Of a stretch of 64,000 nucleotides of DNA, positions 9,007-55,265 are shown in pieces (position 1 is the first letter of the stretch; each line of letters begins with the position of its first letter). Source of the stretch: Naegleria gruberi (lineage: Eukaryota); assembly GCA_000004985.1 (NCBI GenBank), contig GG738870.1, one strand, 5' to 3'. The translations under genes were made by a program, and so were the position numbers. A model generated the notes under the pieces. It did no database searches. It was not told the origin of the DNA and worked only from the letters and a program-made list of their open reading frames with translations.

Positions 9007-10053
9007 CTAAGATGCACTTAACTTTCTGTAAACTATGGAAGGGCCAAAATCTGAGAAATCCTTATGCGAAATCCATTTTTGGTGGAATGTCGATAATGAA
9101 GTTAATATTGATCCTCCAATCCATACACTCTTTTCACGATCAGGTGGTGTTATCACTCTACTTTTAAGTGTTGGAGCTGCAATTGCCCATTTTTCTTTCA
9201 TTTGTTCTTGCAATTTTGCATCAAATCCTGCCATTAGTGAGCTTCCTCCACCCAGAACAGTGTTGTTAACAAACAAATATCTTTGGTCAATCTCAGCACT
9301 GAGAGCAGATTTTAGTATCATATCAGGTATAGATAATTCATCTCCACAAATAGGGCTTGGATCAAACAATAAATTAGCTGCCCTAACAGATTCATCACCA
9401 ATTTCGACTGTTCCACCACCAGGTAAATCATAAATCTTATCACTGGAATCTCCCTTACAATTACACAATTTTTCCTTAATATTATTTACAATTTTCTTAT
9501 TGAAATTCAACTTTCCACTCTCTTTCAATAACTTCATAAGATAGAGTGTGATATCACTTCCTCCAAAATCACTTCTATACAATCCTCTTGTCATCAAATA
9601 ACCCTCATTAATTGGCAAAGCATGACAAGTACCATCTCCGCACATAATAGACAAAGCACTTCCTCTCCCAGATGCATAAATGTTCAATAAACCTTCCCAA
9701 ACAAATTGTGTATAGGGAACTTGAAACGATTCAAATAGAACCTCCACCATTCTTTCTCTATTCGATTTTGGATTTAATATGGTTTCAGTCAGTAAAACAG
9801 CAGAATCTGATGGATTACAACTAACAGCTTGATAAGCATGATTCCAAACTGTTTCCATTCGTTCCCAATCTAAAACAATTCCTCTCTCCATCGGACTCAC
9901 ATAATTATCATCATTGCCATGATCAGAACCCACAACTACTTGATGATCATCAAGTGAAACAATGGATCTACATTTGTATTCACAATCATCTTCTCCCGAT
10001 CGCCCAATCCTGCAATAATAACCTCCATTATCTATCACATATGAATTTTCCAT
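9007..10053 (-). CDS. Divergent actin-related protein (Arp/actin fold), 348 aa
   Basis: Actin-family signatures: N-terminal 'VIDNGGYYCRIG', 'MCGDGT', 'LPGGGT', and C-terminal 'SVWIGGSILTSLSTFHQKWISHKDF' (compare actin WIGGSILASLSTFQQMWI). Confidence 0.65.
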   Translation of the reverse strand: MENSYVIDNGGYYCRIGRSGEDDCEYKCRSIVSLDDHQVVVGSDHGNDDNYVSPMERGIVLDWERMETVWNHAYQAVSCNPSDSAVLLTETILNPKSNRERMVEVLFESFQVPYTQFVWEGLLNIYASGRGSALSIMCGDGTCHALPINEGYLMTRGLYRSDFGGSDITLYLMKLLKESGKLNFNKKIVNNIKEKLCNCKGDSSDKIYDLPGGGTVEIGDESVRAANLLFDPSPICGDELSIPDMILKSALSAEIDQRYLFVNNTVLGGGSSLMAGFDAKLQEQMKEKWAIAAPTLKSRVITPPDREKSVWIGGSILTSLSTFHQKWISHKDFSDFGPSIVYRKLSAS

Positions 10054-20518: not shown

Positions 20519-20588
20519 AGGGAGATAGTTCAGTGGTAGAACATGGGATTGTGGTTTTAAGATCAGGGTCCGATTCCCTGTCTTCCTA
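20519..20588 (+). tRNA. tRNA-like Pol III gene with a non-canonical anticodon arm (possible tRNA pseudogene or derived element)
   Basis: aGGGAGATAGTTCAGTGGTAGAACA...CAGGGTCCGATTCCCTGTCTTCCTA has a 7-bp acceptor stem, T8, a GTTC/GAAC D-stem with AGTGGTA loop (A-box), a CAGGG/CCCTG T-stem with B-box-like loop, and a T6 terminator 4 nt downstream. The 20-nt segment between D and T arms (TGGGATTGTGGTTTTAAGAT) cannot form a 5-bp anticodon stem. Confidence 0.5.
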
Positions 20589-20725
20589 CACCTTTTTTAA
20601 CACAGCTTTTTTGCTTCTTTACACAAGTGTAGTTTTTTGTCCTTTTTTTAAGTTTATTCTAAATGGTTTTTTGCCTTAATTCTAAGATTAATTTAGTTGG
20701 GTTTATTATTAATAAATAATTGATT

Positions 20726-23611: not shown

Positions 23612-25440
23612 TTAAACTGAAATACTGCTTTCGGCATAGTGAGTAACTGTTTGATCAGTGTCCAAATCTTCAACAAGTCCTTCGAAATTCTTCTTGGTTT
23701 TTTCCAGAGAAAATTCCTTGATTGTTCCATCTCTTGTTGCAACGTAGAGAACATTGTTGGTCTTTCCTCTACATATACTAGTGAATGGCTTTCTAACTTT
23801 CAATACCTATATTATAATTTCCACAAGTTTCGAATAGTTCAGCACCAAATTGAAATATTAACATGGATCATAATAATTAAATCATTGAATAGTTCAATGT
23901 CTACTACTTACACAAACGGTCTTTCCGTGTTTCAAATCCCAAATTCTGACTTCATTGTCATCACCTCCACTAACTAGAATTCTTCCTTTAACCATAATGT
24001 TCTTAATTTTAGTAGAGTGACCTTTCAATTCTCTCTTGAATTCATCACCTTCATCGACACGATACTCTCTAATAATACCATCCCATGAAGCAGTGATTAG
24101 ATGGGTTCCACCTAGTCCATCAATATTCTTTGCAACAGCAATACGACAAACACAATCCTTGGCTTCTTCCATAACTTTCATGCATTTACCAGTTGTGCAA
24201 TTCCATTTTCTAACAGTCCTATCTTGACTACAACTATACATGTGAAATCCATCTTCCATAACTACGAAATCCCATACCCATGATGTGTGTCCTGCAAAGG
24301 TCAATAAAAGTGTACCATCTTCAGTATTCCATTTACGAATGGTTTTATCAGCACTTGAACTGTAAATGTAATCATTTTTAACAGCAATACCAGTTACAAT
24401 ATCTGTGTGTCCTCTAAAAGTTTGTAAACATTCACCAGTTTCAGCATCCCATTTACGAATATCATTATCAAAAGATCCACTATATAAGTGTTTCTTTCCG
24501 TGCAATGTCAATGATGAAATTGTTTTAGTGTGACCTTTAAAGAAATGAAGAATGACTTGACGTTCAGCTGCCCATGATCTTATATCACCATCATCTGATC
24601 CTGTATAAATAACACCTTCAGGTGATGTAATCATCGCAGAAATAAACTTTCCATGTCCTTTAAAGACAAAGAGACATGATCCACTTGGATCCCTATTATT
24701 ATTACAAATTATTATTATTATTATTACAATTGATTGTTATAATTGATTGTTATAATTGATTGTTATAATTGATTGTTATTAAATTGTTATCAGCAATTGA
24801 GTTGGTTACATTGTTAATAATGGATTGTTTTAAAAAAGTGTGTTTGTTGGTTAATAGTAGTAGTATATTAGTTGTATTGGTAGTAGTAGTAGTAGTAGTG
24901 TTAATAACATTCATTATTTTGTTTACAAGTTTGGAAAGTCATATTCAAAGTAGTAATAAATTAATATTATTGTAATCGTTATGAATAATGTCAAATTGAA
25001 CACAAGTTTGTTGTTATTATTGTTTGATGAGTAATTCATCATCATCATTATTCGATAGTGGTAGAATAACAATATTTCATCATCATCAAAATTAATTGAT
25101 ACAAAAAAGAACAGATGAAGAATAGGATGTTGTTGTTGTTATACGAAAGTAATTATCACATCATCGTGATGAAACCCATCATCATCATTGTATTTTCCAT
25201 AGAAAAAGGAATGGTAACAAATAGATGAAATATACACAGATTAAATTATAAGAACTAAACAATATTCGAAACAACAACATACCATTGTCTGAGAGTCGCA
25301 TCATGAGAACCAGAATAAAGCTTTCCATTGAAATATTGAAGTGTGGAAATACTCTTGGCATGTCCAGTAAATTCCTTGCTAGACTCCAACTCATCAGGTG
25401 TTGTACTCTGATCATTGTCAAATGTCAATATATTGATCAT
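23612..25440 (-). CDS. WD40-repeat protein; 3 exons (25283..25440, 23912..24691, 23612..23806). Intron 1 is 591 nt and microsatellite-rich; intron 2 is 105 nt.
   Basis: Repeated GH..(S/T)...WD units: 'FTGHAKSISTLQYFNGKLYSGSHDATLRQW|DPSGSCLFVFKGHGKFISAMITSPEGVIYTGSDDGDIRSW...FKGHTKTISSLTLHGKKHLYSGSFDNDIRKWD..'. Donors gtatgt/gtaagt and acceptors aatag/tatag are in consistent phase. Confidence 0.75.
24728..24779. repeat. Tandem repeat (AATTGATTGTTAT)x4 inside WD40 intron 1, flanked by (ATT)n, (GTA)n and (CAT)n microsatellites across about 24690-25250
   Basis: Direct reading: aattgattgttat repeated four times; tagtagtagtagtagtag at about 24879-24897; attattattattatt at about 24707-24722. Confidence 0.85.
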
Positions 25441-35849: not shown

Positions 35850-36929
35850 ATGTTCGAACATATGCCTACGCAATGCTATAACTTGCCTAAACTACAGGCT
35901 CCGCTTACCATAACAGTAATTCCTTCTCACTCACTGAAGAGGAAGAAGGAAGATGAAGAAGAAATTGACGATCATGACGAAAATAATTCTCTTATAATTA
36001 CTCCTTGCATACAAAGACAATCACGATATTCAACAGGAGTTTATTCATCTCCAACAAAAATACATTATCCATCACATCAAACCGACTGTACAATAATACC
36101 AACACATTCATCTCAAATACCAACAACAGAAGAAGGACAGCCTAAAAAATTAAAACAATATCATGAACAAACTAACGAATGCTCTACAACAGTTGCTAGT
36201 AGTAGTTTAATTATGAATTCACCATTTCAATTATTTTACAAGCCACAATTAACCGATCCATGGTTTTCAAAATTTAATATGGAAGAATGTGTTATGAATT
36301 TTAATAGATATGTAGATGACATGCATGATGTTAATGTGATCAAAATGAGTCCGCAAGAATATTTTAATTGTTGTTATGATTTTAGTTCATCTTTCAATGG
36401 ATCAGGTTTACTAAGGTTATATAGAGATCTTGGTTTCAAATCTTTCTTTGATTATAGATATTTCATATTTGTATTCTTATTTAATTTCAATACTAAACTT
36501 TCCATATCAAGAAGTGAATGGACATTTGGAATGTTCAATTTACAATGTGATAATGTACAGAAACTCAGATATCAAATTGATAAAGTTGCAGAAGAATCTA
36601 AAACATGGAACAATGATCAAATGAAGAATTTGTTCACTGTTACATTTAAAATATTGAGAGAATCTGAAAAGAGTAGATCAATTGATGCAACTGTAGCAGG
36701 ATATGCTTTGAAAGTATTAATGACAGGTAGAAGTCCTTTCACAGAATCATTTTCTAATTTTTTAATTTCATCAAATAATCCAATTAGATCAATTAATTTA
36801 GATCAATGGAAAATATTTGTTGATTTTTCATCTAATATTTCTGCCAACCTTTCAAATTATGATTCTAATGATGCTTGGCCATCACTTTATGATAATTATT
36901 TGAGTTGTTCATTCGGATTAAAATATTAA
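35850..36929 (+). CDS. DCN1-like (defective in cullin neddylation) PONY-domain protein
   Basis: C-terminal 'INLDQWKIFVDFSSNISANLSNYDSNDAWPSLYDNYLS' parallels DCUN1D '[39 protein letters not shown]'. Confidence 0.65.
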   Translation: MFEHMPTQCYNLPKLQAPLTITVIPSHSLKRKKEDEEEIDDHDENNSLIITPCIQRQSRYSTGVYSSPTKIHYPSHQTDCTIIPTHSSQIPTTEEGQPKKLKQYHEQTNECSTTVASSSLIMNSPFQLFYKPQLTDPWFSKFNMEECVMNFNRYVDDMHDVNVIKMSPQEYFNCCYDFSSSFNGSGLLRLYRDLGFKSFFDYRYFIFVFLFNFNTKLSISRSEWTFGMFNLQCDNVQKLRYQIDKVAEESKTWNNDQMKNLFTVTFKILRESEKSRSIDATVAGYALKVLMTGRSPFTESFSNFLISSNNPIRSINLDQWKIFVDFSSNISANLSNYDSNDAWPSLYDNYLSCSFGLKY

Positions 36930-36952
36930 ATATATTCTTATTTATTTACAAA

Positions 36953-37915
36953 TCAGTCTTTATTACTCTTTTTAGATGATTTTTCATCTTCTTCCTGTTC
37001 TTTCTTTTTCCTTTCTTCTTCCTCTTGTTGTCTTGCTCTTTCTTCTCTCATCTTTCTCACTCTCTCCCATTTTTCATCAGCAAGCCTCTTTTCCTCGTCC
37101 TCAAATTCTTTTTCTTCCTTTTCAATTCTTGAACATAAGGTTTCTAAATCCTTTTCAATTTGGCTACTGAGCCAATCCAATCCTTTCACTATATGTTCGT
37201 CAGTCTTATTCTTCGTCAATTCTCTTTTAGCAATACATGGCAAAATGTTGAAACTGGAAACATATTCGGTCAACTCGTGTAATTGTAATCGTTCTGAAAT
37301 TTCTGAAGGCTCTAATGAATTCGGTAAATCTTGCTTATTTGCCAATCTAATTGAAATGTTAACTAAATTTTTAAATAATAGTCAAACATACAATAGGAGA
37401 GGTTTTCCTTTAAAGTATGGATGCTTTATACTGTCCACAAGTGTTTGACGAGACTCTTCCAATCTTTTTTCATCTGCAGAATCAATAACGAAAATAGCTC
37501 CGTGAATCTAATTAGATATTTGTATTCAAATCATCACCAATGAAATTAAACTTACTGATGGAAAATAATTTGGCCAAATGGCTCTAATATTTGCACCACC
37601 TCCAACATCAAAATATGTAATTTCATAATGTTCATGTTTCAACACTTCTCTGTTGAATCCAACAGTTGGCATTGGTTTAAAATCCGCATGTCCCTTAAGA
37701 GAGGCTAAGAATGTTGATTTACCAGCATTATCTATTTTGTATTTACAATTTTAATCCAATAATTAAATTGATGATAATTAAAAATACAATTGATTAGACC
37801 TTCAGAATTCTAATTTCTTCTTCTACTCACCCAAACCAATAAGCATCACCGTTATTTTCAACTCATCCTTCTTCTTCTTCCCGAATCCGAATAAATTCTT
37901 AAAGAGTGATAACAT
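36953..37915 (-). CDS. ARF-like small GTPase of the ARL13 type (ciliary) with coiled-coil K/E-rich tail; 4 exons (37831..37915, 37556..37731, 37392..37507, 36953..37346)
   Basis: MLSLFKNLFGFGKKKKDELKITVMLIGL|DNAGKSTFL...MPTVGFNREVLKHEHYEITYFDVGGGANIRAIWPNYFPS|IHGAIFVIDSADEKRLEESRQTLVDSIKHPYFKGKPLLL|LANKQDLPNS...VKGLDWLSSQIEKDLETLCSRIEKEEKEFEDEEKRLADEKWERVRKMREERARQQEEEERKK. It has G in place of the catalytic Q ('DVGGG'), the 'LDNAGK(S/T)' P-loop and the coiled-coil tail as in ARL13B (FDLGGGIRIRGIWKNYY...ANKQD...[25 protein letters not shown]..). Introns are 97, 48 and 43 nt. Confidence 0.75.
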
Positions 37916-38145
37916 TTTTTGTTTGATTTGATATTTTTAAAAATTCTCGATAACTATAAAACAATGAAACCACTCTCTGATTATACAGTGTACTTCTTTC
38001 AACAAACATTTCAATCTGTAAATATTTTGGCGCGAAATTTTAATTCGCATAAATTTTGCAGAGCACTACAAATGTATTACACATTGAAGTTTGTTGTAGT
38101 ATTGTGAAAAAATATAAACATTGCATGTTATCTTGAATTTCTAAA

Positions 38146-54315: not shown

Positions 54316-54387
54316 GGGACCATGGTCTAGTGGTATGATTCTCGCTTTGGGTGCGAGAGGCCGTGGGTTCGATTCCCACTGGTCCCC
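54316..54387 (+). tRNA. tRNA-Pro (anticodon UGG)
   Basis: GGGACCATGGTCTAGTGGTATGATTCTCGCTTTGGGTGCGAGAGGCCGTGGGTTCGATTCCCACTGGTCCCC gives a perfect cloverleaf (7/4/5/5 stems) with anticodon loop CTTTGGGTG; near-identical to metazoan tRNA-Pro; T-rich terminator follows. Confidence 0.9.
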
Positions 54388-54931: not shown

Positions 54932-55265
54932 TTTATAAATTTATTGCTTCTTCTGCTGATTGGAAGTTTTGATGTGTGTTTTGCAAGTTTCTTGATCAAA
55001 GTGGAAATTTATATTTAGACTTTCTTGCAGTTCGTCAGCAAGTAATTGTACTACATTGTAGAATTGCTTGTAGTTCAAAAAATAATTGCTTGCATTTCAT
55101 TGTAGAATTGCTTGCACTTCATTGCGTAACCACAGTACGTCACCCATTCACTATTTTTAAATTATCACCAAAACTAATTAAAAAATCTCTGCTCGAGATC
55201 CTCTCTGTTGCTTCATCATCGGGATCTCATCACATATTAAATTATTTAATAATCACCAATAATTC

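What the first reader, a model, noticed from the sequence alone, without database searches (positions are those of the whole stretch)
36953..37915. ARL13-type ciliary GTPase in a genome that otherwise looks dictyostelid-like
The spliced product is colinear with ARL13B. This includes the hallmark DVGGG (Gly replacing the catalytic Gln), the LDNAGKS P-loop, and the long coiled-coil basic/acidic tail. ARL13 is essentially restricted to organisms that build cilia or flagella. The poly-N/Q proteins, codon usage, short AT-rich introns and gene density would suggest a non-flagellated social amoeba. Either the source organism is a flagellated AT-rich lineage, or this is an unexpected retention with a non-ciliary role.
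Basis: partly seen in the sequence, partly recalled or inferred. Interest (0 to 1): 0.55.

Follow-up and report, generated by a model that had tools for sequence, protein, structure and literature searches.

The report
Naegleria gruberi ARL13 ciliary GTPase gene
The gene is a genuine ARL13-type ciliary GTPase, but the window comes from Naegleria gruberi, an amoeba that grows flagella on demand, so its presence is expected and has already been catalogued.

Summary
A four-exon gene on the minus strand (36953-37915) encodes a 256-aa protein with an LDNAGKS P-loop, DVGGG in place of DxxGQ, NKQD, and a long charged C-terminal helix.

The ARL13 assignment also holds:
- The best solved-structure match is Chlamydomonas ARL13B (E 1e-53; ARF1 7e-33).
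- Reciprocal best hits are to human, Chlamydomonas and Trypanosoma ARL13.
- The ARL13 clade has 90% bootstrap support on the G domain alone.
- The AlphaFold model superposes on 5DI3 chain B at 1.7 Å.
- Most residues tested for ARL3-GEF activity are conserved.

The "dictyostelid-like genome" premise is wrong. The protein is 100% identical to Naegleria gruberi NAEGRDRAFT_68064 / XP_002676849. Four other ORFs spread across the window exactly match N. gruberi proteins from the same 418-kb scaffold.

Naegleria is an amoeboflagellate that builds basal bodies and flagella de novo. Vargová et al. 2021 already list this exact sequence as NgrArl13, alongside NgrArl3 and NgrArl6a/b. So there is no paradox and nothing new.

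One minor open point remains. Heterolobosean ARL13s lack the N-terminal palmitoylation cysteines, the RVxP motif and the proline-rich tail, so how they reach the flagellum is unknown.

The parts
36953..37915 (-). Complete ARL13 gene (CDS with three introns) of Naegleria gruberi, NAEGRDRAFT_68064 / XP_002676849.1, listed as 'NgrArl13'
   Evidence: The spliced translation is 100% identical over 256 aa to P0001. The same sequence appears as NgrArl13 in the supplement of PMC8358228.
37831..37915 (-). Exon 1: residues 1-28 plus the first base of codon 29. It covers the N-terminus MLSLFKNLFGFGKKKK (no Gly2, no Cys) and the start of strand beta-1.
37556..37731 (-). Exon 2: P-loop GLDNAGKS, switch I (PTVGF, with F54 matching CrArl13B F53), DVGGG, and switch II (R78, W81, Y84).
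37392..37507 (-). Exon 3: core of the G domain, from IHGAIFVIDSAD to KGKPLLL.
36953..37346 (-). Exon 4: the NKQD guanine-specificity motif, the rest of the G domain, and the long C-terminal helix (residues 176-255) carrying R199, K218 and R221. The TGA stop is at 36955-36953.
37732..37830 (-). Intron 1: 99 nt, GTGAGT...AG, 21% GC.
37508..37555 (-). Intron 2: 48 nt, GTAAGT...AG, 23% GC.
37347..37391 (-). Intron 3: 45 nt, GTATGT...AG, 18% GC.

Best explanation
This is the single-copy ARL13 orthologue of the amoeboflagellate Naegleria gruberi.

Inferred mechanism, by homology with Chlamydomonas and human ARL13B: the protein binds GTP but hydrolyses it poorly, because Gly74 replaces the catalytic Gln. 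It is therefore mostly in the GTP state. In that state it uses switch I, switch II and the long C-terminal helix alpha-6 to bind ARL3 on the face opposite the nucleotide pocket, and it acts as the ARL3 guanine-nucleotide exchange factor inside the flagellum. ARL3-GTP would then release lipidated cargo from its carriers there.

What is shown here: gene structure, orthology, fold, conservation of most GEF-interface residues, and the presence of an ARL3 orthologue in the same genome.

What is inferred: GEF activity, flagellar localisation, and induction during the amoeba-to-flagellate differentiation.
For: Source organism:
- The protein is 100% identical to N. gruberi NAEGRDRAFT_68064. Next are N. 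fowleri at 87% and Willaertia magna at 74%.
- Four ORFs at about 2.5, 9, 29 and 61 kb of the window are exact N. gruberi proteins (XP_002676840, 841, 848 and 854) on the same 418,085-bp contig.

Orthology:
- Against solved structures, Chlamydomonas ARL13B (5di3_B, 4m9q) scores 185 bits, E 1e-53, aligned over residues 20-247. The best ARF1 scores 117 bits.
- Human ARL13B, Chlamydomonas ARL13 and Trypanosoma ARL13 each choose this protein as best hit among 10 N. gruberi ARF-family paralogues, at 160, 160 and 134 bits. The next-best hits score 117, 120 and 87 bits.
- A neighbour-joining tree on 162 G-domain columns recovers the ARL13 clade, including the query, in 180 of 200 bootstraps.

Structure:
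- The AlphaFold2 model has mean pLDDT 90.2 and pTM 0.81.
- Its top four PDB fold matches are CrArl13B chains. 5di3_B aligns over 205 columns at rmsd 1.7 Å with target TM-score 0.93. That is about 30 more aligned columns than any other ARF, owing to helix alpha-6.

GEF residues tested by Gotthardt et al. 2015 (PMC4868535), mapped (Chlamydomonas to Naegleria):
- F53 to F54.
- R77 to R78 (human Joubert R79).
- Y83 to Y84.
- R194 to R199 (human Joubert R200).
- R213 to K218.
- R216 to R221.

Genome context and literature:
- Vargová et al. 2021 list this exact sequence as NgrArl13 (classified by IQ-TREE). They also list NgrArl3, NgrArl6a/b and NgrArl16 in N. gruberi, and none of these in Dictyostelium discoideum.
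- Naegleria assembles canonical basal bodies and two flagella de novo (PMC4819266).
Against: - No experiment on the Naegleria protein was found. Its accessions occur in no searchable main text.
- One salt-bridge residue of the Chlamydomonas interface is not conserved: CrK210 is Ala215 in Naegleria, Willaertia and Andalucia.
- The aligned positions of the CrArl3 acidic partner residues are not clearly acidic in NgrArl3. The paper's own numbering of these residues is inconsistent, so that mapping is uncertain.
- The protein lacks every described ARL13 ciliary-targeting or anchoring device: N-terminal Cys for palmitoylation, RVxP, a proline-rich tail, and the euglenozoan DD_RI_PKA domain. Flagellar localisation therefore rests on orthology alone.
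- I could not retrieve the differentiation time-course expression data.
Confidence: 0.9

Rival explanations
1. ARL13 has been retained by a non-flagellated, dictyostelid-like social amoeba and serves a non-ciliary function.
For: The window is 32.4% GC, and 72% of it lies in stop-free stretches of at least 150 codons.
Against: - The window is N. gruberi by exact protein identity at five loci on one scaffold.
- Naegleria is flagellated (PMC4819266).
- D. discoideum has no Arl3, Arl6, Arl13 or Arl16.
- Poly-N/Q runs are only 5-6 residues long, and there are just four of them.
Confidence: 0.01
2. The gene sits on a contaminant or mis-assembled contig that does not belong to the surrounding genome.
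For: None found.
Against: - Exact N. gruberi proteins lie on both sides, at 2.5, 9, 29 and 61 kb. Their RefSeq numbers run consecutively, with XP_002676848 immediately before XP_002676849.
- Composition is uniform at 29-37% GC across the window.
- Orthologues at 87% and 74% identity exist in N. fowleri and Willaertia.
Confidence: 0.01
3. It is an ARL13 orthologue by descent, but in heteroloboseans it has a changed mode of action. It might be cytosolic or axoneme-associated rather than membrane-anchored, or it might also act in amoebae. The reason to consider this is that it has lost the palmitoylation site, RVxP and the proline-rich tail.
For: - All eight heterolobosean-type sequences are short (237-277 aa).
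- None has Cys within the first 20 residues, an RVxP motif or a Pro-rich stretch.
- Trypanosoma ARL13 shows that targeting can be rewired, there through a DD domain (PMC6140319 abstract; PMC8358228).
- CrK210 is replaced by Ala.
Against: - The N-terminus keeps a hydrophobic-plus-polybasic character (LFKNLFGFGKKKK, net charge +4), similar to other ARF-family N-termini that bind membranes.
- The GEF-critical F54, R78, Y84, R199 and R221 are conserved.
- Vargová et al. note that 11 of 70 ARL13 genes depart from the canonical tail, so a short tail is not unusual.
Confidence: 0.08

Closest known systems
Chlamydomonas reinhardtii ARL13B (PDB 4M9Q; 5DI3 chain B in complex with ARL3)
   Same: - The G domain plus the kinked helix alpha-6 superpose at rmsd 1.7 Å over 205 columns.
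- Sequence identity is about 40%.
- The DxGGG motif is shared.
- GEF-relevant residues F53, R77, Y83, R194, R213 and R216 are all matched.
   Different: - The Naegleria protein ends at residue 256. It lacks the roughly 270-residue Pro/Ala/Gly-rich tail.
- It lacks Cys12, which Vargová et al. predict to be palmitoylated.
- CrK210 is Ala215 in Naegleria.
Human ARL13B (Joubert syndrome 8 protein)
   Same: - About 40% identical over 238 residues.
- LDNAGK is shared, and DLGGG in human corresponds to DVGGG here.
- The Joubert residues R79 and R200 are conserved as R78 and R199.
- The ERVRK(L/M)REER stretch in the coiled coil is nearly identical.
   Different: The Naegleria protein has none of the following:
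- Cys8/Cys9 palmitoylation site.
- RVEP ciliary-targeting motif.
- Proline-rich C-terminus.
Trypanosoma brucei ARL13
   Same: Both are discobid ARL13 orthologues with DLGGG and a short tail. The two are reciprocal best hits at 134 bits.
   Different: - TbArl13 carries an N-terminal DD_RI_PKA docking domain that targets it to the flagellum (PMC8358228). Naegleria has no such extension.
- TbArl13 lacks the equivalents of R199 and R221 in the alignment.
ARL3, ARL2 and ARL6
   Same: They share the ARF fold and the P-loop and NKxD motifs, and are 31-37% identical to the query.
   Different: - They keep the catalytic Gln (DxGGQ, or DMSGQ in ARL6).
- They lack helix alpha-6.
- They score 77-120 bits, compared with 177-187 bits for the human, Chlamydomonas and Andalucia ARL13 proteins.
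- They fall in separate clades.
- N. gruberi has its own ARL2, ARL3 and ARL6a/b genes.

Membership tests
ARF family small GTPases (Pfam PF00025) | Match to the Arf profile above the curated cut-off, with G1 GxxxxGK[ST], G3 DxxG and G4 NKxD motifs. | tested here: met
   PF00025 scores E 1e-42 at 146 bits (cut-off 22.3), covering residues 16-189. GLDNAGKS, DVGG and NKQD are all present.
ARL13 | Orthology: reciprocal best hits and monophyly with established ARL13 proteins, to the exclusion of other ARF and ARL paralogues. | tested here: met
   - The top PDB sequence hits are CrArl13B.
- Reciprocal BLAST against 10 N. gruberi paralogues picks this protein.
- The ARL13 clade is recovered in 180 of 200 NJ bootstraps on the G domain.
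- An independent IQ-TREE classification as Arl13 is published in PMC8358228.
ARL13 | The catalytic Gln of switch II (DxxGQ) is replaced, typically by Gly (DxGGG). | tested here: met
   The query has Gly74. Across 17 ARL13 sequences the position is Gly in 14, Ser in 2 and Asp in 1. In other ARF-family members 21 of 27 have Gln. Gly74 is more than 90% conserved in alignment A1.
ARL13 | A C-terminal extension forming a long helix or coiled coil (alpha-6) that packs on the G domain and is needed for ARL3-GEF activity. | tested here: met
   AF2 predicts helices 176-191 and 193-255 at pLDDT of roughly 88-97, falling to about 71 in the last few residues. The model superposes on 5di3_B including alpha-6. 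CrArl13B truncations at residue 202 or 213 abolish GEF activity (PMC4868535).
ARL13 | Conservation of the residues shown by mutagenesis to support GEF activity towards ARL3 (Cr F53, R77, Y83, R194, K210, R213/R216). | tested here: met
   F54, R78, Y84, R199, K218 and R221 are conserved. K210 is Ala215. That is six of seven, with one salt-bridge partner lost.
ARL13 | N-terminal S-palmitoylated cysteine(s) for membrane anchoring (shown in C. elegans and mammals; predicted in about half of ARL13s). | tested here: not met
   There is no Cys in the first 20 residues of the query or of any of the eight heterolobosean-type orthologues. According to PMC8358228 this feature is common but not universal, so it is not strictly defining.
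ARL13 | A proline-rich region and RVxP ciliary-targeting motif in the tail (animal ARL13B). | tested here: not met
   No RVxP motif is present, and the richest 30-residue window has 4 prolines. Vargová et al. report that some ARL13 genes lack the Pro-rich region, so this is a lineage-variable feature.
ARL13 | Phyletic co-occurrence with cilia and with ARL3 in the same genome. | tested here: met
   - N. gruberi has Arl3 (1 gene), Arl6 (2), Arl13 (1) and Arl16 (1).
- D. discoideum, Acanthamoeba and Entamoeba have none of these four.
- The heterolobosean Neovahlkampfia lacks Arl3, Arl13 and Arl16 but keeps two Arl6 genes (PMC8358228, supplementary table 3).
- Naegleria builds flagella (PMC4819266).
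ARL13 | Biochemical GEF activity on ARL3, and localisation to the ciliary membrane. | not testable with these tools
   This needs recombinant protein and imaging. No published data on the Naegleria protein were found.

The most novel reading that the evidence does not exclude
Heterolobosean ARL13 proteins (Naegleria, Willaertia, Acrasis and related environmental sequences) form a 'minimal' ARL13. They have only a G domain and helix alpha-6, with no palmitoylation site, RVxP motif, proline-rich tail or DD domain. They may therefore reach and stay in the flagellum by a so-far undescribed route, for example an N-terminal hydrophobic and polybasic segment or direct binding to another flagellar protein.

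A corollary concerns Acrasis kona. A clear orthologue in this aggregative slime mould would mark either a cryptic flagellate stage or a genuinely non-ciliary use of ARL13.
Probability: 0.3. Interest if true: 0.35.

Novelty: already known. Interest (0 to 1): 0.08.

Why it matters
It matters little beyond correct bookkeeping. The finding shows that an ARL13 call made from raw sequence can be right while the taxonomic guess behind the apparent paradox is wrong.

[quoted passage not shown] Its ARL13, ARL3 and ARL6 set was already catalogued and used to infer that ARL13 dates back to the last eukaryotic common ancestor.

The one usable lead is that the Naegleria protein is a naturally truncated ARL13. 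It could help define the minimal determinants of ARL3-GEF activity and of flagellar targeting.

Tried and rejected
- The look-up of encoding contigs with the exact protein returned nothing on record. I established the source through the listing of cluster members on neighbouring ORFs instead. Five of the ten ORFs were not exact matches, presumably because the annotated models have introns or other start codons.
- I looked for expression data for gene 68064 during differentiation. The Fritz-Laylin & Cande 2010 paper, the genome paper and a 2011 review are not held. The 2024 RNA-seq preprint has no supplementary text held. No paper mentions the accessions.
- A literature search for IFT, BBSome and dynein genes in Naegleria was uninformative. 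I relied on PMC4819266, PMC4736243 (RABL2 present in N. gruberi) and the ARF-family table.
- The first bootstrap script timed out. I re-implemented it with numpy.
- The high-scoring angiosperm, echinoderm and Perkinsus hits looked like ARL13 in non-ciliated plants. They are tandem ARF1-ARF1 fusions whose two domains add up in score, so I rejected them.
- A test for an N-terminal amphipathic helix was inconclusive. The hydrophobic moment is 0.58, reached by 6.5% of shuffles, and AF2 gives low confidence for residues 1-18.
- There is no clustering of ciliary genes around the locus. The neighbours are actin-like, Y-family polymerase, kinase, FYRN/FYRC, DCN1-like, TUTase, ELAPOR1-like, Med13, RCC1 and calpain genes.

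Full report
**1. The observation**

Reading the minus strand of 36900-38000 and splicing by script gives a four-exon gene:

| Part | Coordinates | Notes |
|---|---|---|
| Exon 1 | 37915-37831 | starts at the ATG |
| Intron 1 | 37830-37732 | 99 nt, GT..AG, 21% GC |
| Exon 2 | 37731-37556 | |
| Intron 2 | 37555-37508 | 48 nt, GT..AG, 23% GC |
| Exon 3 | 37507-37392 | |
| Intron 3 | 37391-37347 | 45 nt, GT..AG, 18% GC |
| Exon 4 | 37346-36953 | stop codon included |

The CDS is 771 nt, in frame, and encodes 256 aa. The product carries GLDNAGKS (P-loop), DVGGG (Gly74 where ARF proteins have the catalytic Gln) and NKQD. It ends in a K/E/R-rich C-terminal third.

**2. Where the window comes from**

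The protein is 100% identical over its full length to "hypothetical protein NAEGRDRAFT_68064 [Naegleria gruberi]". The next hits are N. fowleri (87%), Willaertia magna (74%) and Acrasis kona (49%), all Heterolobosea.

An exact-sequence look-up of ten long ORFs spread over the window found four more exact N. gruberi proteins. They are XP_002676840, 841, 848 and 854, at about 2.5, 9, 29 and 61 kb. All sit on the same 418,085-bp contig, and their accession numbers bracket the ARL13 record XP_002676849. A fifth ORF clusters with kinases of N. lovaniensis and N. fowleri.

The window is therefore a native stretch of the N. gruberi genome. It is neither a dictyostelid nor a contaminant. GC is 32.4%, and the only homopolymeric N/Q runs in long ORFs are four runs of 5-6 residues. 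The "dictyostelid-like" impression was weak to begin with.

**3. Is it ARL13?**

Pfam sees only the generic Arf domain (E 1e-42), so orthology needed separate tests.

- **Solved structures.** The two best matches are Chlamydomonas ARL13B (5di3_B and 4m9q; 185 bits, E about 1e-53). They align over residues 20-247, which includes the C-terminal helix. The best ARF1 scores 117 bits.
- **Reciprocal BLAST.** I used a panel of curated sequences copied from the supplement of Vargová et al. 2021 plus database hits. The query's best hits outside Heterolobosea are Andalucia, Chlamydomonas and human ARL13(B), at 177-187 bits. The best non-ARL13 is NgrArf1a at 128 bits. In the other direction, human ARL13B, Chlamydomonas ARL13 and Trypanosoma ARL13 each pick the query as best among ten N. 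gruberi ARF-family paralogues.
- **Tree.** A neighbour-joining tree on 162 G-domain columns, with the tail excluded, groups the query with all ARL13 sequences in 180 of 200 bootstraps. The ARL2, ARL3 and ARL8 clades, each with its own Naegleria member, are recovered separately.
- **Catalytic position.** At the Gln position, 14 of 17 ARL13 sequences have Gly, two have Ser (Acrasis and a related environmental sequence), and human ARL13A has Asp. Of the other ARF-family proteins, 21 of 27 have Gln.
- **Structure.** An AlphaFold2 model from a 23-sequence alignment is confident (pLDDT 90.2, pTM 0.81). It shows an ARF G domain followed by helices 176-191 and 193-255. Foldseek against the PDB ranks the four CrArl13B chains first. 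5di3_B aligns over 205 columns at rmsd 1.7 Å with target TM-score 0.93, ahead of all ARF, ARL2, ARL3 and ARL6 structures, which align over about 170 columns.

Neither applies.

**4. How it most likely works**

Gotthardt et al. 2015 (PMC4868535) showed that GTP-bound ARL13B is the exchange factor for ARL3. It contacts ARL3 through switch I, switch II and helix alpha-6. F53A, R77Q and K210E/R216E impair activity strongly, Y83A moderately and R194C only mildly. Truncation before residue 220 also removes activity. Mapping these residues onto the Naegleria protein:

| CrArl13B | Naegleria | Note |
|---|---|---|
| F53 | F54 | conserved |
| R77 | R78 | human Joubert R79 |
| Y83 | Y84 | conserved |
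| R194 | R199 | human Joubert R200 |
| R213 | K218 | conservative change |
| R216 | R221 | conserved |
| K210 | A215 | not conserved |

N. gruberi also encodes an ARL3 orthologue (XP_002678092), which is 60% identical to human ARL3.

The most likely mechanism is therefore the canonical one. ARL13 is a constitutively GTP-loaded protein in the flagellum that activates ARL3, which in turn releases lipidated cargo from its carriers. Gene structure, orthology, fold, residue conservation and partner presence are shown here. Activity, localisation and timing of expression are inferred. I could not obtain the differentiation expression tables.

**5. Why there is no paradox**

Naegleria amoebae differentiate within about an hour into flagellates. 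They assemble two canonical basal bodies and flagella de novo, with transcription of basal-body and flagellar genes (PMC4819266).

In the eukaryote-wide ARF survey (PMC8358228, supplementary table 3), N. gruberi has Arl3 (1 gene), Arl6 (2), Arl13 (1) and Arl16 (1). Dictyostelium, Acanthamoeba and Entamoeba have none of these. The heterolobosean Neovahlkampfia lacks Arl3, Arl13 and Arl16 but keeps two Arl6 genes. RABL2, another cilium-specific GTPase, is also present in N. gruberi (PMC4736243).

The same survey lists this exact 256-aa sequence as "NgrArl13", classified by IQ-TREE. The gene is thus already known and already assigned.

**6. What differs from textbook ARL13B**

The Naegleria protein, and all eight heterolobosean-type sequences examined, is short (237-277 aa). 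It has no Cys in the first 20 residues, no RVxP motif and no proline-rich tail. It also has no N-terminal DD_RI_PKA domain of the euglenozoan type.

The N-terminus is MLSLFKNLFGFGKKKK, which is hydrophobic and polybasic. The evidence for an amphipathic helix is inconclusive: the hydrophobic moment is 0.58, matched by 6.5% of shuffles, and AF2 confidence there is low.

Vargová et al. already note that 11 of 70 ARL13 genes depart from the canonical tail. This is therefore a lineage variant rather than a new kind. How the protein is targeted remains an open, modest question.

**7. Surroundings**

The neighbours are ordinary eukaryotic genes:
- actin-like
- Y-family DNA polymerase
- protein kinase
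- FYRN/FYRC protein
- a DCN1-like cullin-binding protein, convergent with ARL13, with 23 bp between the two stop codons
- TUTase
- ELAPOR1-like
- Med13
- RCC1
- calpain

Two tRNA genes and no other Rfam matches were found. There is no ciliary gene cluster.

**8. Verdict**

The anomaly is not real, because the organism is a flagellate-forming amoeba. The gene is already catalogued in the literature, so interest is low.

Noticed in passing
Not in the window: protein P0009 (Acrasis kona): Acrasis kona is an aggregative, sorocarpic heterolobosean slime mould. It has a clear ARL13 orthologue: 249 aa, 49% identical to the query, DLGGS at the G3 motif, and placed inside the heterolobosean ARL13 clade. 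The main text of the A. kona genome paper contains no occurrence of 'flagell', 'cilia' or 'IFT'. Others report flagellate-type tubulins in Acrasis (PMC9036621), and the title of a 2025 paper speaks of cryptic flagellate stages in Heterolobosea.
   Followed up: partly
window 36929-36953: The DCN1-like gene (Cullin_binding domain; + strand ORF ending at 36929) and ARL13 (- strand, stop codon at 36955-36953) are convergent. Only 23 bp separate their stop codons, so their 3' UTRs and polyadenylation signals must overlap.
   Followed up: no
Not in the window: proteins P0008, P0011, P0013, P0014, P0016 and P0022: High-ranking hits from sea stars, sea urchins, Beta vulgaris, Salvia, Penstemon and Perkinsus outrank true vertebrate ARL13B. 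They are 344-374-aa tandem ARF1-ARF1 fusions, or merged gene models, with DVGGQ occurring twice. Their scores are sums over two domains, and they are not ARL13.
   Followed up: yes
window 20519-20589 (+) and 54316-54387 (+): Two tRNA genes, tRNA-His(GTG) and tRNA-Pro(TGG), are the only Rfam and ARAGORN matches in the window.
   Followed up: no
window 9007-10053 (-): An ORF of 348 aa matches only part of the 410-position actin profile, in two stretches, the best covering profile positions 5-190. It is an exact match to N. gruberi XP_002676841, which UniRef names 'Actin'. It may be a divergent or truncated actin-family member.
   Followed up: no
window 24708-24779 and 55046-55124: Two short tandem repeats were found: period 13 with 5.6 copies, and period 22 with 3.6 copies. 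Both lie in intergenic sequence.
   Followed up: no
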